The notes below the pieces were generated by a model. The model searched no databases. It was not told the DNA's origin and saw nothing but the letters and a program-made list of their open reading frames with translations. This document shows positions 23,090 through 34,821 of a DNA stretch of 46,383 nt, piece after piece. The DNA is from a virus. Taxonomy: Duplodnaviria > Heunggongvirae > Uroviricota > Caudoviricetes. How positions within the stretch are numbered: position 1 is the stretch's first letter; each line of letters opens with the position of its first letter. The translations under genes and the position numbers were made by a program. The DNA lies in the IMG/VR virus record IMGVR_UViG_638341086_000015, positions 1 to 46,383 of that record. One strand, 5' to 3'.

Positions 23090-23272
23090 TCCTCACCTCG
23101 CAAAAACTCTCACCTCACAATCACAACAAAACCGGTCATGTCCGGTTTACATGTCTGTTTTTTGTTCATGTCCGGTTCACAGAAGACCTGTTTTTATATT
23201 TTTCATATAGTTAACTTGAAGAGAAACCGGACATGGATCCCGGAAAATTTTCATAAATAGCGAAAACCCGCG

Positions 23273-23284
23273 AGGTCGCCGCCC
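23273..23284. other. cos: cosN cohesive-end site (12-nt GGGCGGCGACCT on the - strand)
   Basis: Reverse complement of 23230-23300 reads ...GGTTACGGGGCGGCGACCTCGCGGGTTTTCGCTATTTATGAAAATTTTCCGG, matching the lambda cos region from memory; lies just upstream of Nu1. Confidence 0.8.
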
Positions 23285-23491
23285 CGTAACCTGTCGGATC
23301 GCCGGAAAGGACCCACGAAAATGATAATAATTATCATCTACATGAGGTTTATCACGACATGTGTGTACGCCATCAAACCACGAGAAATAATCAATTATTA
23401 CGCAGGTATCGTATTAATTGATCTGCATCAAATTAGCGTAAAAGCAACTTCAGATAATACAAATCAGCAACACTGAATACGGGGCAACATT

Positions 23492-23716
23492 ATGTCATCA
23501 AAGAACAGAACCCGCAGAACAACAACCCGCAACATCCGATTTCCAAACCAGATAATTGAACAAATTAACATCGCTCTTGACCTGAAAGGTTCAGGTAATT
23601 TTTCAGCGTGGGTTATTGAAGCCTGCAGAAGAAGATTAATTAATGAAAAACATGCTCAATTTGTACCCAACAAAGACAAACACGACCAGAGCACCTGTTC
23701 AGACAGGTTTACTTAA
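23492..23716 (+). CDS. Small basic protein, possible ribbon-helix-helix DNA-binding protein
   Basis: 74 aa; basic N-terminus then RNIRFPNQIIEQINIAL, resembling an RHH beta-strand/helix start; family not confirmed. Confidence 0.4.
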   Translation: MSSKNRTRRTTTRNIRFPNQIIEQINIALDLKGSGNFSAWVIEACRRRLINEKHAQFVPNKDKHDQSTCSDRFT

Positions 23717-23797
23717 ACGACTTATATATGACACAAAAAGCGACCACTAAAGTCGCTTTTTCTTATGGTAACAGGCAATAACTCTCTCAGATATTTT

Positions 23798-24112
23798 TTA
23801 GCATTTTTTTGACCGCGCGTTTCCGGACGTATTCTGTTCTCCTGTCCCTTTATATCGTCGGAATACCCGCCGCTCTTCAAATCCCATTCCCAACTCAGAA
23901 TGTAGTCTGTTGACCGCTTGTTTTATTTCGGTCAGGTTCACCGGTGAAACCGGAGTCCGGCGCGCCTTACGCAAACACTCTGCTCGTTTCTGTGCCGCCA
24001 CTTTTCTTTTCTGGTCATCACTTAGCTGTACCATCACTTTTGCCCATCGTTCAGCTGCTCTCCGGTACAGTCCTTTTTTCTCCAGACATTCTGCCACGTG
24101 ATCATGTAGCAT
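23798..24112 (-). CDS. pchC: PerC-like transcriptional activator (Pch family)
   Basis: 104 aa, MLHDHVAECLEKKGLYRRAAERWA...; recalled as PerC-homologue Pch sequence; GGAGG ribosome-binding site. Paralogue assignment (pchA/B/C) is by linkage to tccP only. Confidence 0.75.
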   Translation of the reverse strand: MLHDHVAECLEKKGLYRRAAERWAKVMVQLSDDQKRKVAAQKRAECLRKARRTPVSPVNLTEIKQAVNRLHSELGMGFEERRVFRRYKGTGEQNTSGNARSKKC

Positions 24113-24577
24113 AAGTGACCTCCGATTATCTACAGACTGCCATCCTGAATTTACCTTCCCTTAATGAAATAACAATAAAAAACAAACCACGCAAAAACAA
24201 TAAAACAACACACAAAAAAAACTAAATAATAAACAAAAATAATCACCTTATTTTATTATTTTTTGAGGGAGCAATTACTGAACAAAAAACGCTGACTATA
24301 TACTCAAAACCAAACAACTATTCTGCCAATCAGGTATCATGGCAACACACGGAATTACCGTGTTTTTGCCTTCTCTGCCCATACAATACGGGCATATACT
24401 TCATTCTCTATTGTAATATTTCTATCCATGTGCCCCACTCCATTTACCTGTAAATAATATTCAAAATATTTATCACAGAAATCGTTTTTGGCCATGAACT
24501 GAGCACACTATAAAGTCCGGAACTGACTCTTTGTTAAATTACCTTAACGTTACCAGTAACACCTTCATAACAAAACA

Positions 24578-25045
24578 TCACGGTATACACTGGGTACGGA
24601 TATATTCCTGTGCTCCTTCCAGTTGCTTCTGCATTGCCATCAGCCGTTCTCTGAGGATGAAATAATCCCGTTCAGCGGTGTCTGCCAGTCGGGGGCCGGT
24701 TGCATTATCCACGCCGGAGGTGCCGGTGGCTTCACGCACGGTACCGGAGCAGGTGGCGTTGATCCGCAGGCGCTTACGACCAGCGGCAACATCAGCACGC
24801 AGAGTTTCATTTTCAGCTCTCGCATCGGCTAATTCCCTCGAGTATCTGGCATCAAGTGCAGCGACATCACGCTGGCGTATCTGCATATCAGTAATTGTCG
24901 CGTTCGCCAGCTCCAGCTCACTGGCTTTTTTATCGCGCTGCTCTTTGTAGATGATGGCGTGATCACGGTAATGATTCAGCCCCAGACTAAGCGCACCACA
25001 GGCCACCAGCAGGACAATGATAACCACGCACAGAACACGGTTCAT
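24578..25045 (-). CDS. Rz: Spanin inner-membrane subunit Rz (i-spanin)
   Basis: Aligns with lambda Rz from MNRV... (NHYRD..AI.YK.QRDK, VDNA..PRLADTAERDYF..RERL). Start placed at ATG 25045. Confidence 0.85.
   Translation of the reverse strand: MNRVLCVVIIVLLVACGALSLGLNHYRDHAIIYKEQRDKKASELELANATITDMQIRQRDVAALDARYSRELADARAENETLRADVAAGRKRLRINATCSGTVREATGTSGVDNATGPRLADTAERDYFILRERLMAMQKQLEGAQEYIRTQCIP
24640..24825 (-). CDS. Rz1: Spanin outer-membrane lipoprotein Rz1 (o-spanin), embedded in Rz in the +1 frame
   Basis: 61-aa ORF inside Rz: MRELKMKLCVLMLPLVVSAC with lipobox and proline-rich body (CVKPPAPPAWIMQPAPDWQTPLNGIIS), like lambda Rz1. Confidence 0.8.
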   Translation of the reverse strand: MRELKMKLCVLMLPLVVSACGSTPPAPVPCVKPPAPPAWIMQPAPDWQTPLNGIISSSENG

Positions 25046-25046
25046 A

Positions 25047-25160
25047 TCACCACCAACGGATTGCCCAGACCAGAACAGCAATGGCCACAATACGAATGGC
25101 AAAAGCTGCCGCTCTTGTTAAATCCAGACTGGCTGGCGTCTCCACTTCAATGCCTTTCAT
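25047..25160 (-). CDS. Candidate 37-aa membrane peptide in the gap between R and Rz
   Basis: Not in the ORF track (under 60 aa). Read by eye: ATG about 25160, GAGG about 10 nt upstream, product MKGIEVETPASLDLTRAAAFAIRIVAIAVLVWAIRWW, stop TGA one base before the Rz ATG. Confidence 0.3.
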   Translation of the reverse strand: MKGIEVETPASLDLTRAAAFAIRIVAIAVLVWAIRWW

Positions 25161-25380
25161 AATGGACAACCTCAGAAAGAATCTTTTATACTTCCTCACA
25201 GGGAAAGTACCTCCCTACCCATAATTTCTCCCTTGCCTTACTCAAGGTCAGAAAACACAAAACCCCGCTTGCTGCCAACAAACGGGGTTTTTACTTTTAT
25301 TCACTTAGGTTTTACCAGTTTTCAGGATTTCGTGTTATCCACCCGCGTTGGCCAACGTCATTTTTCAGGAAAATATTCTG

Positions 25381-25914
25381 CTATCTGTCGATGTCCCAGC
25401 ACGCCAGCGCGCTCTCCTGGTCACGCCGTGAGACCTGACCGTAGCAATTATTTGAACGGATACGGCAGTCTCTGCCACCGTCCTTAATCCACCAGCGAAT
25501 CGCCTCACAGGCACCTTTTCGATCGCCTGCATTAATTCGTTTATAAAACGTCGACGGGAAGCACTTACCGGGGCCAATGTTGTACGGACAGAATGACGCG
25601 ATCCCCGCTTTCTGGGGTTCGGTCAGCGGCACCCGGATGTTTTTCTCCACCCATGCCAGCGCCTTGTCACGTTCGATGGCATTAACCCGGTCGCATTTTT
25701 CCTTTGACAGCTTCATGCCAGGAATAACAGGCTTACCATCCACCAGAATGGCACCACGGCAGATGGTCCAGATCCCCGCACCATCACGGTATGCCGTGGT
25801 GTGGTTACCTTCCTTTTCATCCAGAAACTGGTCGAGGATTTCAGGCGCAGAAGCACCTGCACCAATCAGCGCCAGAACGGCAGCCGACAGGCCGTATTTT
25901 ATTTTTTCGTTCAT
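25381..25914 (-). CDS. R: SAR endolysin R (T4-lysozyme-like, glycoside hydrolase family 24)
   Basis: 177 aa; weakly hydrophobic Gly/Ala-rich signal-anchor-release segment (YGLSAAVLALIGAGASA) followed by the E-x8-D-x5-T catalytic triad. Confidence 0.85.
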   Translation of the reverse strand: MNEKIKYGLSAAVLALIGAGASAPEILDQFLDEKEGNHTTAYRDGAGIWTICRGAILVDGKPVIPGMKLSKEKCDRVNAIERDKALAWVEKNIRVPLTEPQKAGIASFCPYNIGPGKCFPSTFYKRINAGDRKGACEAIRWWIKDGGRDCRIRSNNCYGQVSRRDQESALACWDIDR

Positions 25915-26031
25915 GGGGATTTATCGATTTCTAATCCCTTGATATGTTAGGTATATAATCAAACACTCATGGTCGCTCTCATAAACATATCCCTTGAGAC
26001 GCAGCAGATTACAACAAATGAAGCCATATAA

Positions 26032-26346
26032 ATGAACAGTAAAGAAAGTTTGCGCAGAAGATTTTTACAACTAATGACAGAAAACGTTAAATCAGAGTTA
26101 CTTCTTCTGATGGCAGATAATAACGAAGCAACAAGCAGCATTCTTGCAGACCCTTACGGTAAGATCTCACATAAAACGCTGGATATTATTACCACAACAT
26201 TAACACCGCTGATGCTTCAACGGCTGAAACATAATATCAACGCATGGGTTAATGAAGAATTAAGTCCTCCCTGTTTATGGGATTCTCGTTACGCATGTCA
26301 GCAAAAAATGCGAATTTTCAACTTACTATCACCAAAGCTCAGGTAG
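26032..26346 (+). CDS. Hypothetical 104-aa ORF in an AT-rich insert between holin and endolysin genes
   Basis: Only long ORF in the 690-bp gap 25915-26601; no obvious ribosome-binding site; opposite strand to the lysis genes. Confidence 0.3.
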   Translation: MNSKESLRRRFLQLMTENVKSELLLLMADNNEATSSILADPYGKISHKTLDIITTTLTPLMLQRLKHNINAWVNEELSPPCLWDSRYACQQKMRIFNLLSPKLR

Positions 26347-26601
26347 CCATAAAATCCTGCCCTTCATGGCATACAGGATTTCAATGGAATCACAATGACC
26401 AACTCTTGCACAGCTGTATCCCTGACTCCCCGACAACTCAGATTTTCAGTATCTGCTGCTATCTAAAGAGAAAGCGCACAAATGCAAGGGTCTTTCATCA
26501 CATCCTGTTATTGATTGCCTGTGACCTTTTCTTACCTCATGGAACGTTTTTTCAGTTAGAAATATTCATTTTACAACCAGTTCGTATTGTTTATTCATCG
26601 A

Positions 26602-26808
26602 CTACTCTCCCCGCGCCACCTTACGACGGTCCTCTCTGATTTTGAAATACAGGTTAGTCAGATACGTCAGCAGGCCAAACAGCAGACTTCCCAGCACACC
26701 TATTGCCACCCACTGGGACGGAGAGACTTTGTCCAGCAGCTGCAGTAACCAGTATCCCGTCCCCACCGCTGACGTGGTGTATGACACACCTGTTGTGATT
26801 TTTTCCAT
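26602..26808 (-). CDS. S: Holin S (phage 21 S21 pinholin-like)
   Basis: 68 aa: [62 protein letters not shown], two predicted transmembrane segments and basic C-terminus, matching recalled S21. Confidence 0.85.
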
Positions 26809-27064
26809 CTGATGTATGTCTCCGTCACCGCCGACAGAAAATGAAAGTAAAGAAAAACAAAAAAGCCGCCAGTGTCACCCACTGACGGCCAACTCCGGGA
26901 GCCGTGATTATGGCATTCAGGCTCTGCTAAAAATGCCAGATAACATTCCGGCCCCCCCCTGATTCAGGTTATAAATGACACAATATCTTGACAACACCCG
27001 TCACTGTCTGTCAGAAAATATACCGCCAGGCATAAGTATCATGTGAAATCCAACTATCCTTCTG

Positions 27065-27106
27065 AGCCAGCACCTCTCCACCGAAAGTCAGTGCTGGCTG
27101 TTTTTT
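27065..27106 (+). terminator. Rho-independent terminator-like hairpin on the + strand, antisense to the late operon
   Basis: GCCAGCAC ... GTGCTGGC followed by TGTTTTTTT. Confidence 0.45.
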
Positions 27107-27214
27107 TCCTTAATAAAGCATCTGTAACTGAAACAATCCGCATATTGATAATATATTGACAGGCATCATTGCTGTCTGTGAAAAATAAGTCTCTACAAAC
27201 ATATAAGGCCTTTT

Positions 27215-27258
27215 AGCCAGCGTCTTCTTTCAGGTCAGTCGCTGGCTCTTTTTTTATT
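27215..27258 (+). terminator. Second + strand rho-independent terminator-like hairpin
   Basis: AGCCAGCG ... CGCTGGCT followed by CTTTTTTTATT; overlaps the 3' end of the esterase gene. Confidence 0.45.
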
Positions 27259-29106
27259 ATGCTGCCGGTGCATTTATCTCCAGCACCAGACTTTCTATCT
27301 CAACGCCATACGCTGCATTTTTTGTAACATCCGTCAGCGTCAGCNCATTCAGTCCCAGTGTCAGACTGTCTTTTATNACCTGGAATGCCGGGCCAGCCAC
27401 TCCATTCAGTTTCGGAGTAACCGTGGCACTGCCGGCGGTGAACACCAGCTCCAGCGTCTGCCAGTCGTTACCGTAATCGCCGAACTCCCCCAGCTTCGTG
27501 TTTCCGGCTTTCCTGTGATGCATCAGATTCACTCTGCCGTCAGTGGTCTGAGTGAAGTACGACATCAGGAACGGATTACCGGTACCCGTCATCGCCACAC
27601 CATCAGGAACGGGAGCATCCGTATACAGATAAATCCCCAGCCCGAACTGATTGTTGGTCAGTGCGCCTGACAGGCGGAACTTACAGGTCAGTCTGCCGCC
27701 CTGTGTCAGCAGGGTAATTGCGTCATCCACCGGATGCGTCAGGGACCAGGTTTTATTGCTCTGCTTGGTGATCTTAAATACACCATCTGACAACTGAATT
27801 CCGCCATCCTTAATGCTCCAGCCCTGCGCAGCAGCCTCTCCGGCTGCCGGCAGCAGGGAGATTGTGCGAACGGACGTATCTGCAGACGGACCCGATGGCG
27901 TGTTGCCGCCGGGCGAGGGTTTGATTTCCGGTGCCTTACCACTGATGAAGGCGGAGGTGCGCCCGGCTGCGTTCAGAATAGCGGTTGCCAGACGATCCGG
28001 AATAATGCTCCTGCGCGCCCATGAACTGAAATGTGTCGGGCGGTTTGATGATACCTGGTTTCCATTCGTTCTCGATGCCGCACCGTAATATCCTGATGCC
28101 GGAATATCCGGATCTTCTGCCGGCGCGTTAGTGGCGGTATGACGCCGTTACCGTCTGTCATGAAGGGCACAAAATAAACGCCCTCACTCTCCCTGTTTTT
28201 ATACCCGCCGTACACGGTGTCGTACTGGGTAGCGTATGTATTTTTCCAGTAATACGTCGTGTCACCACAAATCCACGGCACATCTGCAGCACTGCCACCA
28301 TGGCACTGCGCGTTAAACACGGAGAGGTCAGCACGAAACTGTGTCAGCATGGCTGTAAACAGCGCAGGTTGCTGTGCGTGGGTGGCGGCGCTCATGTCAA
28401 ACTCTCCCTGCATCCAGCACACCGCCAGCAACACATTTTTCGGGTTCTTCTGTAATGCAGCTTTAGTGCGCGCAATCAGGTCCTGATATAACGGTTTACC
28501 CACACCCCAGCGTGCCGAATCCTGGCTGGCCCCCGTGTCCGCACTGAATGTCCCCTCAGCGCCCTGGGTGAATGCAGAACCACCACGACAGCATGGTACC
28601 AGCAGGATCCCCGCGTTATTCGGGATATACGGAAGCAGTTTTTTGGCAATATGTAAGCCCTGGCCGACACAGCCGTACTGCCCTTTGCTCAGGTCTGCCT
28701 TCGGATGATTCAGCGTACTCATATCCTGCACATCATGCAGGCAGTGGTCAGCCGGAATGATGTCGTTATACGTACAACTCTCTCCACCCGGAGTTACCGT
28801 GCTGCGGCGCGCCAGCTGTTTAATGCGCGGATCCGGAGCATCGTAAGAATCCGGTAACGGAAGCCCTTCACCGTAGGCCATGCCGTTGGACTGTCCGGCA
28901 AGCACAACCACGTAGAACCAGTCCGGCTCAGATGAAGGGCCGACCTGTGGCTCTCCTTCAATAGCCACCGCCTGCATCAGTGTGTACGGCGTAATGGCAA
29001 CCGGTCCGCCGTATGGCTGCCAGCCCTCTTTCAGTTTGTGTGTCAGCTTTTCCGCAAGGTCTGACGGCGACGCCGCCCTGACAACATCATAGTGTTTAAA
29101 TGCCAT
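27257..29106 (-). pseudogene. nanS-p: nanS-p-like sialate O-acetylesterase gene (DUF1737 N-terminus, SGNH/SASA esterase domain, C-terminal lectin-like domain), apparently frameshifted
   Basis: Three overlapping frames cover one ~616-codon span: ORF 27973-29106 (GQSN motif) runs into an Arg-rich out-of-frame tail after ...FMTDGNGV; a second frame continues from about 28130 through ORF 27257-27793 to the stop. Two n bases (about 27345, 27377) lie in the 3' part. Confidence 0.65.
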
Positions 29107-29551
29107 GAATCCTCCCGGCCGGGATAATATTGTGAGTAAAATGAGGAGCGGGCTGAAGTCCGGAAGTTACAGGACAATGGCAGAAGAGAGACAACAGCCC
29201 GCAATACGAAAAAGGCCGCGCTATTGCGCAGAGTGATTACTGTCGGATATTATTCGCCAGCTGAAATATTACTTCACGTTTTGTTGTTTATTCCTTGCCG
29301 CCCGCGTCTCCCTGCGCGGGCTTTTTTTGTCCATAAGAAAGCCCCTCCGGAGAGGGGCTGGAGAGTGGCGCTATGTGCCATTGCATGGTGCCGGGTGCCT
29401 CCCGGTGAATTCAGTACCAGCACCTGAATCCGCGATTATCCCATATACCTACTCGCTGATTGCCCCTCCGCACAGGGGGATTCACCATGCCAGTTTCTTT
29501 TAACAAACTCCCCGCAAACCAGACAACAGTCAACCGCCTGAATTGTGAGAC

Positions 29552-29595: not shown

Positions 29596-29672
29596 TGGCG
29601 CGTTGTACTGGATTCGAACCAGTGACCGATTGCTTAGAAGGCAATTGCTCTGTCCGGCTGAGCTAACAACGC
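29596..29672 (-). tRNA. argO: tRNA-Arg (anticodon UCU)
   Basis: Manual cloverleaf on reverse complement: 7-bp acceptor stem GCGTTGT/ACAACGC, D-arm GCTC..GAGC, anticodon loop CTTCTAA, T-arm ACTGG-TTCGAAT-CCAGT, 3' CCA. Confidence 0.85.
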
Positions 29673-29685
29673 AGGATACAGATAA

Positions 29686-29762
29686 TGGACCGCCTTCGGG
29701 GACCCGAACTCCGCGCAACCAGCTTCGAAAGCTGGCGCTCTTTCCTGATGAGCTAATGGCGG
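29686..29762 (-). tRNA. argN: tRNA-Arg (anticodon UCG)
   Basis: Manual fold: anticodon stem CCAGC/GCTGG with loop TTTCGAA, 3' CCA; one mismatch each in acceptor and T stems. Confidence 0.65.
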
Positions 29763-29769
29763 TATGTGA

Positions 29770-29845
29770 TGGTGGCCCTTGCTGGATTTGAACCAGCGAC
29801 CTGGCGATTATGAGTCGCTCGCTCTCACCACTGAGCTAAAGGGCC
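29770..29845 (-). tRNA. ileZ: tRNA with CAU anticodon (Ile2/Met type, ileZ-like)
   Basis: Manual fold: acceptor GGCCCTT/AAGGGCC, D-arm GCTC-AGTGGTGA-GAGC, anticodon loop CTCATAA, T-arm GCTGG-TTCAAAT-CCAGC, 3' CCA. Confidence 0.8.
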
Positions 29846-34420: not shown

Positions 34421-34576
34421 TTACTCCTCAGGTTCGTAAGCTGTGAAGACAGCGACCTCCGTCTGGCCGGTTCGGACTCGTACCTCGCAGAGGTCTTTCC
34501 TCGTTACCAGTGCCGTCACTATGACGGTTAAACAGATGACGATCAGGGCGATTAACATCGCCTTTTGCTGCTTCAT
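34421..34576 (-). CDS. hok: Hok/Gef-family type I toxin (51 aa, single transmembrane helix)
   Basis: MKQQKAMLIALIVICLTVIVTALVTRKDLCEVRVRTGQTEVAVFTAYEPEE, near-identical in pattern to HokC/Gef. Confidence 0.85.
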   Translation of the reverse strand: MKQQKAMLIALIVICLTVIVTALVTRKDLCEVRVRTGQTEVAVFTAYEPEE

Positions 34577-34633
34577 AGCCTGCTTCTCCTTGCCTTTCGG
34601 CACGTAAGAGGCTAACCTACGTTTGTGAAGCAT
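34421..34633 (-). CDS. mok: Mok-like modulator frame (same frame as hok, N-terminally extended)
   Basis: 70-aa ORF co-terminal with hok, the arrangement recalled for chromosomal mokC/hokC. Confidence 0.6.
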   Translation of the reverse strand: MLHKRRLASYVPKGKEKQAMKQQKAMLIALIVICLTVIVTALVTRKDLCEVRVRTGQTEVAVFTAYEPEE

Positions 34634-34821
34634 AGATTGGGCCTCAGATTAATGTTAAGCGTCTTGCAGGACGCGTAATGTTAACTGGGGCTTTTCTCTG
34701 TCTGCCTTACGGTGGCATGCCCGAGGCAGACAGCCTCAAGCACCCGCAGCAATTCTACTTAACTCTCGCTTTACCGCAAACCGTTTTTACCCGATATGGG
34801 AATTCCCATATCGTAATGAAT

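What the first reader, a model, noticed from the sequence alone, without database searches (positions are those of the whole stretch)
25915..26601. 690-bp AT-rich insertion separating holin S from endolysin R, with an oppositely oriented ORF
Holin and endolysin genes are normally adjacent or overlapping. Here they are split by a low-GC segment whose only long ORF (26032-26346, 104 codons) runs on the + strand and has no recognisable family or clear ribosome-binding site. The endolysin also lacks an obvious Shine-Dalgarno sequence. The insert could be embedded cargo or a regulatory element affecting lysis timing.
Basis: seen in the sequence. Interest (0 to 1): 0.5.

Follow-up and report, generated by a model that had tools for sequence, protein, structure and literature searches.

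The report

Summary
A 687-bp stretch (25915-26601, GC 0.39 against 0.53-0.54 in the flanks) separates a phage-21-type holin from its endolysin and carries a 104-codon ORF on the opposite strand.

The ORF is a real gene:
- dN/dS is about 0.19 against five homologues, and all other frames are full of stops.
- It matches PHROG 1853.
- Published strand-specific RNA-seq shows weak sense transcription without induction. It is highest in cattle faeces, where the holin and endolysin read zero.

The holin-endolysin junction is a variable cargo slot. It is empty in 933W and holds ydfR in H-19B.

Best reading: a moron-type accessory gene expressed from the prophage, encoding a soluble, basic 12-kDa helical protein of unknown function. 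I found no evidence for a role in lysis timing. The feature is already known, so interest is low to moderate.

The parts
26602..26808 (-). [not shown]
26566..26598 (-). Ten-codon stub (MNKQYELVVK, then stop) of a YdfR-like (DUF1327) late gene. It starts 3 nt after the S stop and uses the GGGGAGAG Shine-Dalgarno sequence inside the S 3' end.
   Evidence: Sequence read. It is identical to the first 10 residues of the 263-aa ORF of phage Stx1_14040, and 9 of 12 residues match YdfR of YYZ-2008 and gp05 of Stx2 phage 86. The DNA at 26563-26600 is shared with all ydfR-bearing loci.
26353..26525 (-). Decayed C-terminal remnant of the same late-strand gene (C-domain of the PHROG 1085 / Stx2-86 gp05 type), with in-frame stops
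26032..26346 (+). [not shown]
25931..25959 (+). [not shown]
   Evidence: The -10 is conserved at the same position in 5 of 6 aligned homologous loci (TACAAT in L009), including L014, which has a different lysis cassette and a better -35 (TTAACC). The consensus scan of the window did not flag it. Published RNA-seq shows transcription independent of S and R.
25977..25999 (+). Inverted repeat TCTCA-N13-TGAGA in the presumed 5' UTR (possible operator or RNA hairpin)
   Evidence: Kept in 5 of 6 aligned loci and extended to 9 bp (ATCTCATAA/TTATGAGAT) in L014. Its function was not tested.
26018..26035 (+). [not shown]
   Evidence: Present in 4 of the 6 loci aligned (one search adds L006, whose leader is identical to that of L005). 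Fused in frame in L017 by a 1-nt insertion and absent in L014 and in the Stx2-86 type. Its significance is unknown.
25915..25952 (-). [not shown]
25381..25914 (-). [not shown]

Best explanation
The S-R spacer is what remains of a two-gene cargo module that occupies a variable slot in phage-21-type lysis cassettes.

Half of it is dead. A late-strand YdfR-like gene has been reduced by an internal deletion and point decay to a 10-codon stub plus a scrambled C-terminus.

Shown here or in cited papers: gene identity, purifying selection, decay of the partner, slot variability, and independent transcription (from published RNA-seq). Inferred: the promoter assignment and the benefit to the lysogen. 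Unknown: the molecular target.
For: - Real gene. dN/dS averages 0.19 across five homologues with dS 0.5-1.7, and every other frame has stops. The N-terminal 14 codons are conserved with synonymous changes. Met15, the RefSeq start, is Ile, Leu or Val in distant homologues.
- Module. Stx2 phage 86 gp05 (DUF1327 plus a C-domain, late strand) and gp06 (opposite strand) lie between S and R. The same holds in Stx2_12E129 and in loci L006 and L009.
- Partner decay. Remnants are present in the window. The partner is frameshifted in L005/L008, reduced to remnants in L013 and L017-19, and absent in L014-16, while the 104-aa gene stays intact in all of these loci.
- Variable slot. 933W has S and R 4 nt apart; H-19B and YYZ-2008 have ydfR; other phages have longer cargo.
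- Separate origin. GC is low.
- Lysogen context. In L014-16 the gene sits upstream of a prophage porin gene, opposite to the late operon.
- Protein properties. No transmembrane segment, pI 9.3, confident helical model.
Against: - The promoter is weak by consensus and was not flagged by the scan.
- No terminator was found on the + strand between the ORF and S.
- No Shine-Dalgarno sequence precedes the start codon.
- RNA-seq levels are low (RPKM 0-9 in most conditions). Reads could be affected by multi-copy prophage sequence, because up to 3 copies occur per genome.
- I found no proteomic or ribosome-profiling evidence.
- The tight convergent linkage with the late-strand gene in intact modules could mean a coupled function rather than an independent one.
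- In L023 RefSeq flags an 85%-identity allele as truncated.
Confidence: 0.65

Rival explanations
1. [not shown]
For: In every intact module the two genes are convergent, with 3' ends 8-11 nt apart or overlapping by 21 nt. The partner's conserved C-domain always abuts the 104-aa gene, while its N-terminus varies (DUF1327 or a coiled-coil-like segment).
Against: The 104-aa gene stays intact and under purifying selection where the partner is frameshifted, fragmentary or absent, including a porin-linked context with a different lysis cassette. No PADLOC or toxin-antitoxin family matched either protein. The partner could not be modelled (pLDDT 50.7), so no toxin-like fold is known.
Confidence: 0.15
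2. [not shown]
Confidence: 0.1
3. The ORF is a chance open frame in AT-rich junk, and the whole spacer is non-functional debris.
For: There is no SD, no Pfam family and no strong promoter or terminator. RefSeq calls a different start and sometimes a pseudogene.
Against: dN/dS is about 0.19 over dS up to 1.7, and full length is kept in six divergent contexts. PHROG family match. Confident AF2 model. Transcription above background.
Confidence: 0.03

Closest known systems
[not shown]
   Different: Nothing at the gene level. The literature treats it only as a marker: 26/30 eae-positive against 0/13 eae-negative STEC in PMC7074907, and 'EHEC-associated gene' in PMC6985150. No function has been assigned.
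Stx2-converting phage 86 gp05/gp06 (NC_008464), and the same pair in phage Stx2_12E129
   Same: Same slot between S and R. A 104-aa gene lies on the opposite strand (49% amino-acid identity in the alignment; 53% by tblastn), convergent with a late-strand gene. That late-strand gene starts 3-4 nt after the holin stop in both phages and has a DUF1327 N-terminus in Stx2 phage 86.
   Different: There the late-strand gene is intact (268 or 213 aa), and the opposite-strand gene has a good SD (GAGGA) and a different upstream region. In the window the late-strand gene is a pseudogene.
ydfR (DUF1327) between the holin and endolysin of prophage Qin, H-19B and YYZ-2008
   Same: Same slot and same junction sequences on both sides. 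The window keeps the first 10 codons of such a gene.
Classical lambdoid morons in the late region (bor, lom, the Lc/NmpC porin, the P22 'ant moron')
   Same: A gene present in some related phages and absent in others at one position inside an operon, with deviant base composition and transcribed on its own from the prophage. This follows the definition quoted in PMC2629481. One homologue sits next to a prophage porin gene.
   Different: No terminator was found, the promoter is weak, and no conversion phenotype is known.

Membership tests
PHROG 1853 (phage protein family of unknown function) | Significant match to the family profile over the full protein | tested here: met
   E 3.5e-47; residues 1-102 match profile positions 57-158 of 159.
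[not shown]
   The exact 104-aa sequence is named as a CP-933O protein. Both primers match with 0 mismatches at 26208-26228 and 26280-26302.
[not shown]
   with the gene list from PMC4048457.
Moron (independently expressed insert in a phage operon) | Present or absent between the same two genes in related phages | tested here: met
   933W has S and R 4 nt apart. H-19B and YYZ-2008 carry ydfR only. Stx2 phage 86 carries the two-gene module.
Moron (independently expressed insert in a phage operon) | Base composition different from the flanks | tested here: met
   GC 0.386 against 0.53-0.54.
Moron (independently expressed insert in a phage operon) | Own promoter | tested here: inconclusive
   [not shown]
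Moron (independently expressed insert in a phage operon) | Own terminator | tested here: not met
   No terminator-like site on the + strand between 26346 and 26601. The nearest weak one lies inside S.
Moron (independently expressed insert in a phage operon) | Expression from the uninduced prophage | not testable with these tools
   Literature only: above background in 10 of 13 EDL933 libraries, RPKM 0-23 (PMC4048457 Tables S2 and S4).
YdfR / DUF1327 (for the late-strand remnant) | Intact DUF1327 domain | tested here: not met
   Only 10 codons remain before a stop. Intact relatives match PF07041 at E 1e-44. It is a pseudogene remnant and not a family member.
[not shown]
   No PADLOC family at E of 0.1 or better for either protein.
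Antiholin or membrane lysis regulator | Transmembrane segment or signal sequence | tested here: not met
   Maximum Kyte-Doolittle value (19-residue window) is 0.66, against 1.83 for the holin. The model is all-helical and soluble.
Structured regulatory RNA | Rfam match or unusually stable fold | tested here: not met
   No Rfam hit at E of 1 or better in 25800-27300. Fold z-score 0.27.

The most novel reading that the evidence does not exclude
Probability: 0.1. Interest if true: 0.6.

Novelty: already known. Interest (0 to 1): 0.25.

Why it matters

Tried and rejected
- DNA searches of the insert against the phage collection found nothing in either near or distant mode. Only a protein-level search found Stx2 phage 86 and Stx2_12E129.
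- Rfam and RNA folding of the non-coding part were negative.
- The AF2 model of the late-strand partner had pLDDT 50.7, too poor for a fold search, so I did not use the last fold-search job.
- My initial guess from memory that YdfR is DUF826 was wrong. It is DUF1327. DUF826 is a different gene upstream of S in some loci.
- I tested whether the porin-linked arrangement (L014) occurs in complete E. coli genomes. It does not.
- The PerC neighbourhood in L017 looked like an independent context. It turned out to be a decayed prophage with an R fragment.
- Literature searches for ydfR plus holin and for WP_000138558 found nothing.
- The original Delannoy 2013 paper is not held.

Full report
**1. What is in the sequence**

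The window is a lambdoid prophage with its late operon on the minus strand. The lysis genes are:
- a phage-21-type class II holin, 26602-26808(-), PF04971, E 1e-32;
- a lysozyme-family endolysin, 25381-25914(-), PF00959, E 8e-24;
- Rz, with an embedded Rz1-like lipoprotein ORF.

Holin and endolysin are 687 bp apart (25915-26601). The spacer has GC 0.386, against 0.543 for R, 0.531 for S and 0.516 for the window. Only 2.2% of 687-bp windows in this sequence are as AT-rich. The + strand ORF at 26032-26346 (104 codons) is there, with an in-frame stop directly upstream of its ATG and no Shine-Dalgarno sequence.

A second + strand ORF (26277-26639, 120 aa) lies mostly over sequence that has no DNA match in any comparison locus. 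RefSeq annotates no gene there.

**2. The ORF is a real gene**

A search of 5.8 billion proteins gave full-length homologues at 64-79% identity. I fetched their DNA and made codon alignments with five of them.
- dN/dS was 0.14-0.29 (mean 0.19), with dS 0.5-1.7.
- There were no stops in this frame. Every one of the other five frames had 2-14 stops in each sequence.
- The first 14 codons are conserved with synonymous changes.
- In distant family members the residue aligned with Met15 is Ile, Leu or Val.

The 104-aa reading is therefore correct. The 90-aa RefSeq call (WP_000138558.1) is probably 14 codons short.

The protein is 12.1 kDa with pI 9.3 and has no hydrophobic segment. AlphaFold2 gives a confident five-helix model (pLDDT 84.7, pTM 0.74).

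- It matches PHROG 1853 (unknown function) at E 3.5e-47.
- The exact 104-aa sequence is in public collections on at least 995 contigs, named 'unknown protein encoded within prophage CP-933O [E. coli O157:H7 EDL933]'.

This agrees with my own count. The 687-bp insert has a match in 630 of 5426 complete E. coli genomes (O157, O26, O111, O103, O145, O121 and others), and in 621 records the identity is 99% or more. It is absent at the DNA level from 50,697 phage records.

The family is tiny. A profile search of 1.84 billion representative proteins found 20 clusters.

**4. What the rest of the insert is**

In every locus with an intact arrangement, the small gene is one half of a convergent pair between S and R. 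The other half is a late-strand gene of 189-268 aa that starts a few nt after the holin stop. It ends 8-11 nt from the small gene's stop, or overlaps it by 21 nt. Two examples are gp05/gp06 of Stx2-converting phage 86 and the same pair in Stx2_12E129. The pair in phage 86 is annotated 'YdfR family protein' plus 'hypothetical protein'. The late-strand gene has a variable N-terminus, either DUF1327 (YdfR) or a coiled-coil-like segment, and a conserved C-domain (PHROG 1085/26186).

In the window three pieces of this gene can be traced on the late strand:
- The stretch directly after the S stop reads GGGGAGAGTAG-TCG-ATG AAT AAA CAA TAC GAA CTG GTT GTA AAA TGA. That is the first ten codons of such a gene followed by a stop.
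- Positions 26394-26525 align to the conserved C-domain at 36% identity with two in-frame stops.

The best tblastn score is 29.3 bits, against a maximum of 23.1 in 200 dinucleotide shuffles. The non-coding part has no Rfam match and no unusual fold (z = 0.27).

So the 'insertion' consists of an intact opposite-strand gene and a pseudogene of its late-strand neighbour.

**5. The S-R junction is a variable cargo slot**

Among 357 phage records sharing this S and/or R (in most listed records both genes match), an evenly spaced sample of 60 shows several states:
- Most, like 933W, have S and R 4 nt apart, with R translated behind the GGGGAGAG Shine-Dalgarno sequence inside S.
- H-19B, YYZ-2008 and many Stx1a phages carry ydfR.
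- Others carry 1.4-2.1 kb of different cargo.

All filled slots share about 38 nt after S and about 36 nt before R with the window. H-19B, whose R leader I read, has no SD either, and the other filled slots share its conserved proximal part. The missing SD is therefore a property of the filled slot and not of this insert. The window also lacks 10 nt (TGATAAATAT) of that leader.

**6. The small gene outlives its surroundings**

- The late-strand partner is frameshifted in L005/L008.
- It is reduced to remnants in L013 and L017-19. Those loci are decayed prophages that keep only fragments of R.
- It is absent in L014-16. There the small gene sits upstream of a prophage porin gene, opposite to the late operon of a phage with an unrelated lysis cassette.
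- In all of these loci the 104-109-aa gene is intact.

One 85%-identity allele, next to a different holin, is flagged as truncated by RefSeq.

**7. Expression**

- a conserved inverted repeat (TCTCA-N13-TGAGA, 25977-25999);
- a five-codon mini-ORF whose stop overlaps the start codon.

No + strand terminator follows the gene.

**8. Mechanism**

The best-supported reading is a moron-type accessory gene. It is expressed weakly from its own promoter in the lysogen and makes a small soluble helical protein that works by binding something in the cytoplasm. No part of the evidence ties it to lysis.

Two rivals remain:
- A cis effect on S/R expression through uncoupling or antisense transcription. It is possible, but no structural or comparative evidence supports it.

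A chance ORF is excluded by the selection test.

**9. Verdict**

The feature is already known: it is annotated in EDL933 and in Stx2 phage 86, and it is used as a diagnostic marker.

My analysis adds three small points that I did not find in the papers I could read:
- the neighbouring pseudogene and the two-gene origin of the insert;
- the evidence for purifying selection;
- the likely mis-called start codon in RefSeq.

Interest is low to moderate. It rests mainly on the fact that a widely used EHEC marker gene still has no known function.

Noticed in passing
window 27257-29106 (-): The SASA/NanS-p-type esterase gene upstream of S is one 1851-bp gene in the near-identical prophage of strain RM9872 (L001 7343-9193). 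Here it is split into 178-aa and 377-aa ORFs, and the sequence has N at 27346 and 27378. This is either a pseudogene or poor sequence quality.
   Followed up: no
window 25103-25380: About 280 bp of apparently decayed sequence lie between R and Rz. RefSeq calls a frameshifted hypothetical gene at the matching place in L001 (5137-5246). Stx2 phage 86, YYZ-2008 and Stx1_14040 carry an antirepressor (ant) gene in this position, and 933W has ant directly after R. It looks like a second variable cargo slot in the same lysis cassette.
   Followed up: no
window 25915-25925 (late strand, just upstream of the R start): Ten nt (TGATAAATAT, one copy of a GATAAAT direct repeat) present in H-19B and other relatives are missing from the R leader. 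The effect on endolysin translation is unknown.
   Followed up: partly
window 26032-26073: RefSeq (WP_000138558.1) starts the gene at Met15 (26074). Conservation of the first 14 codons, and the absence of Met at that position in distant homologues, indicate the start is at 26032.
   Followed up: yes
window 23200-24600: A second AT-rich block (GC 0.30-0.42) lies between the small terminase subunit gene and Rz. In the near-identical prophage L001 this region holds a YlcI/YnfO-family gene, a PerC-family regulator and an IS3 element. The window's gap of about 1.5 kb is too short to hold the IS.
   Followed up: no
window 29329-29519, 29599-29845, 34571-34745, 41910-41961: Rfam gathering-score hits: the sRNA STnc100, three tRNA genes downstream of the Q region, a sok antitoxin RNA (hok/sok-type) and DicF.
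   Followed up: no
L002 (Stx1a phage Stx1_14040) 2095-2796 (+): In the same S-R slot this phage has an unannotated 233-aa ORF on the opposite strand. It overlaps the last 84 codons of the annotated 263-aa late-strand ORF, whose homology to PHROG families stops at about residue 170. It may be a different opposite-strand cargo gene. It has no Pfam, PHROG, NCBIfam or PADLOC match.
   Followed up: partly
[not shown]
   Followed up: partly
[not shown]
   Followed up: no
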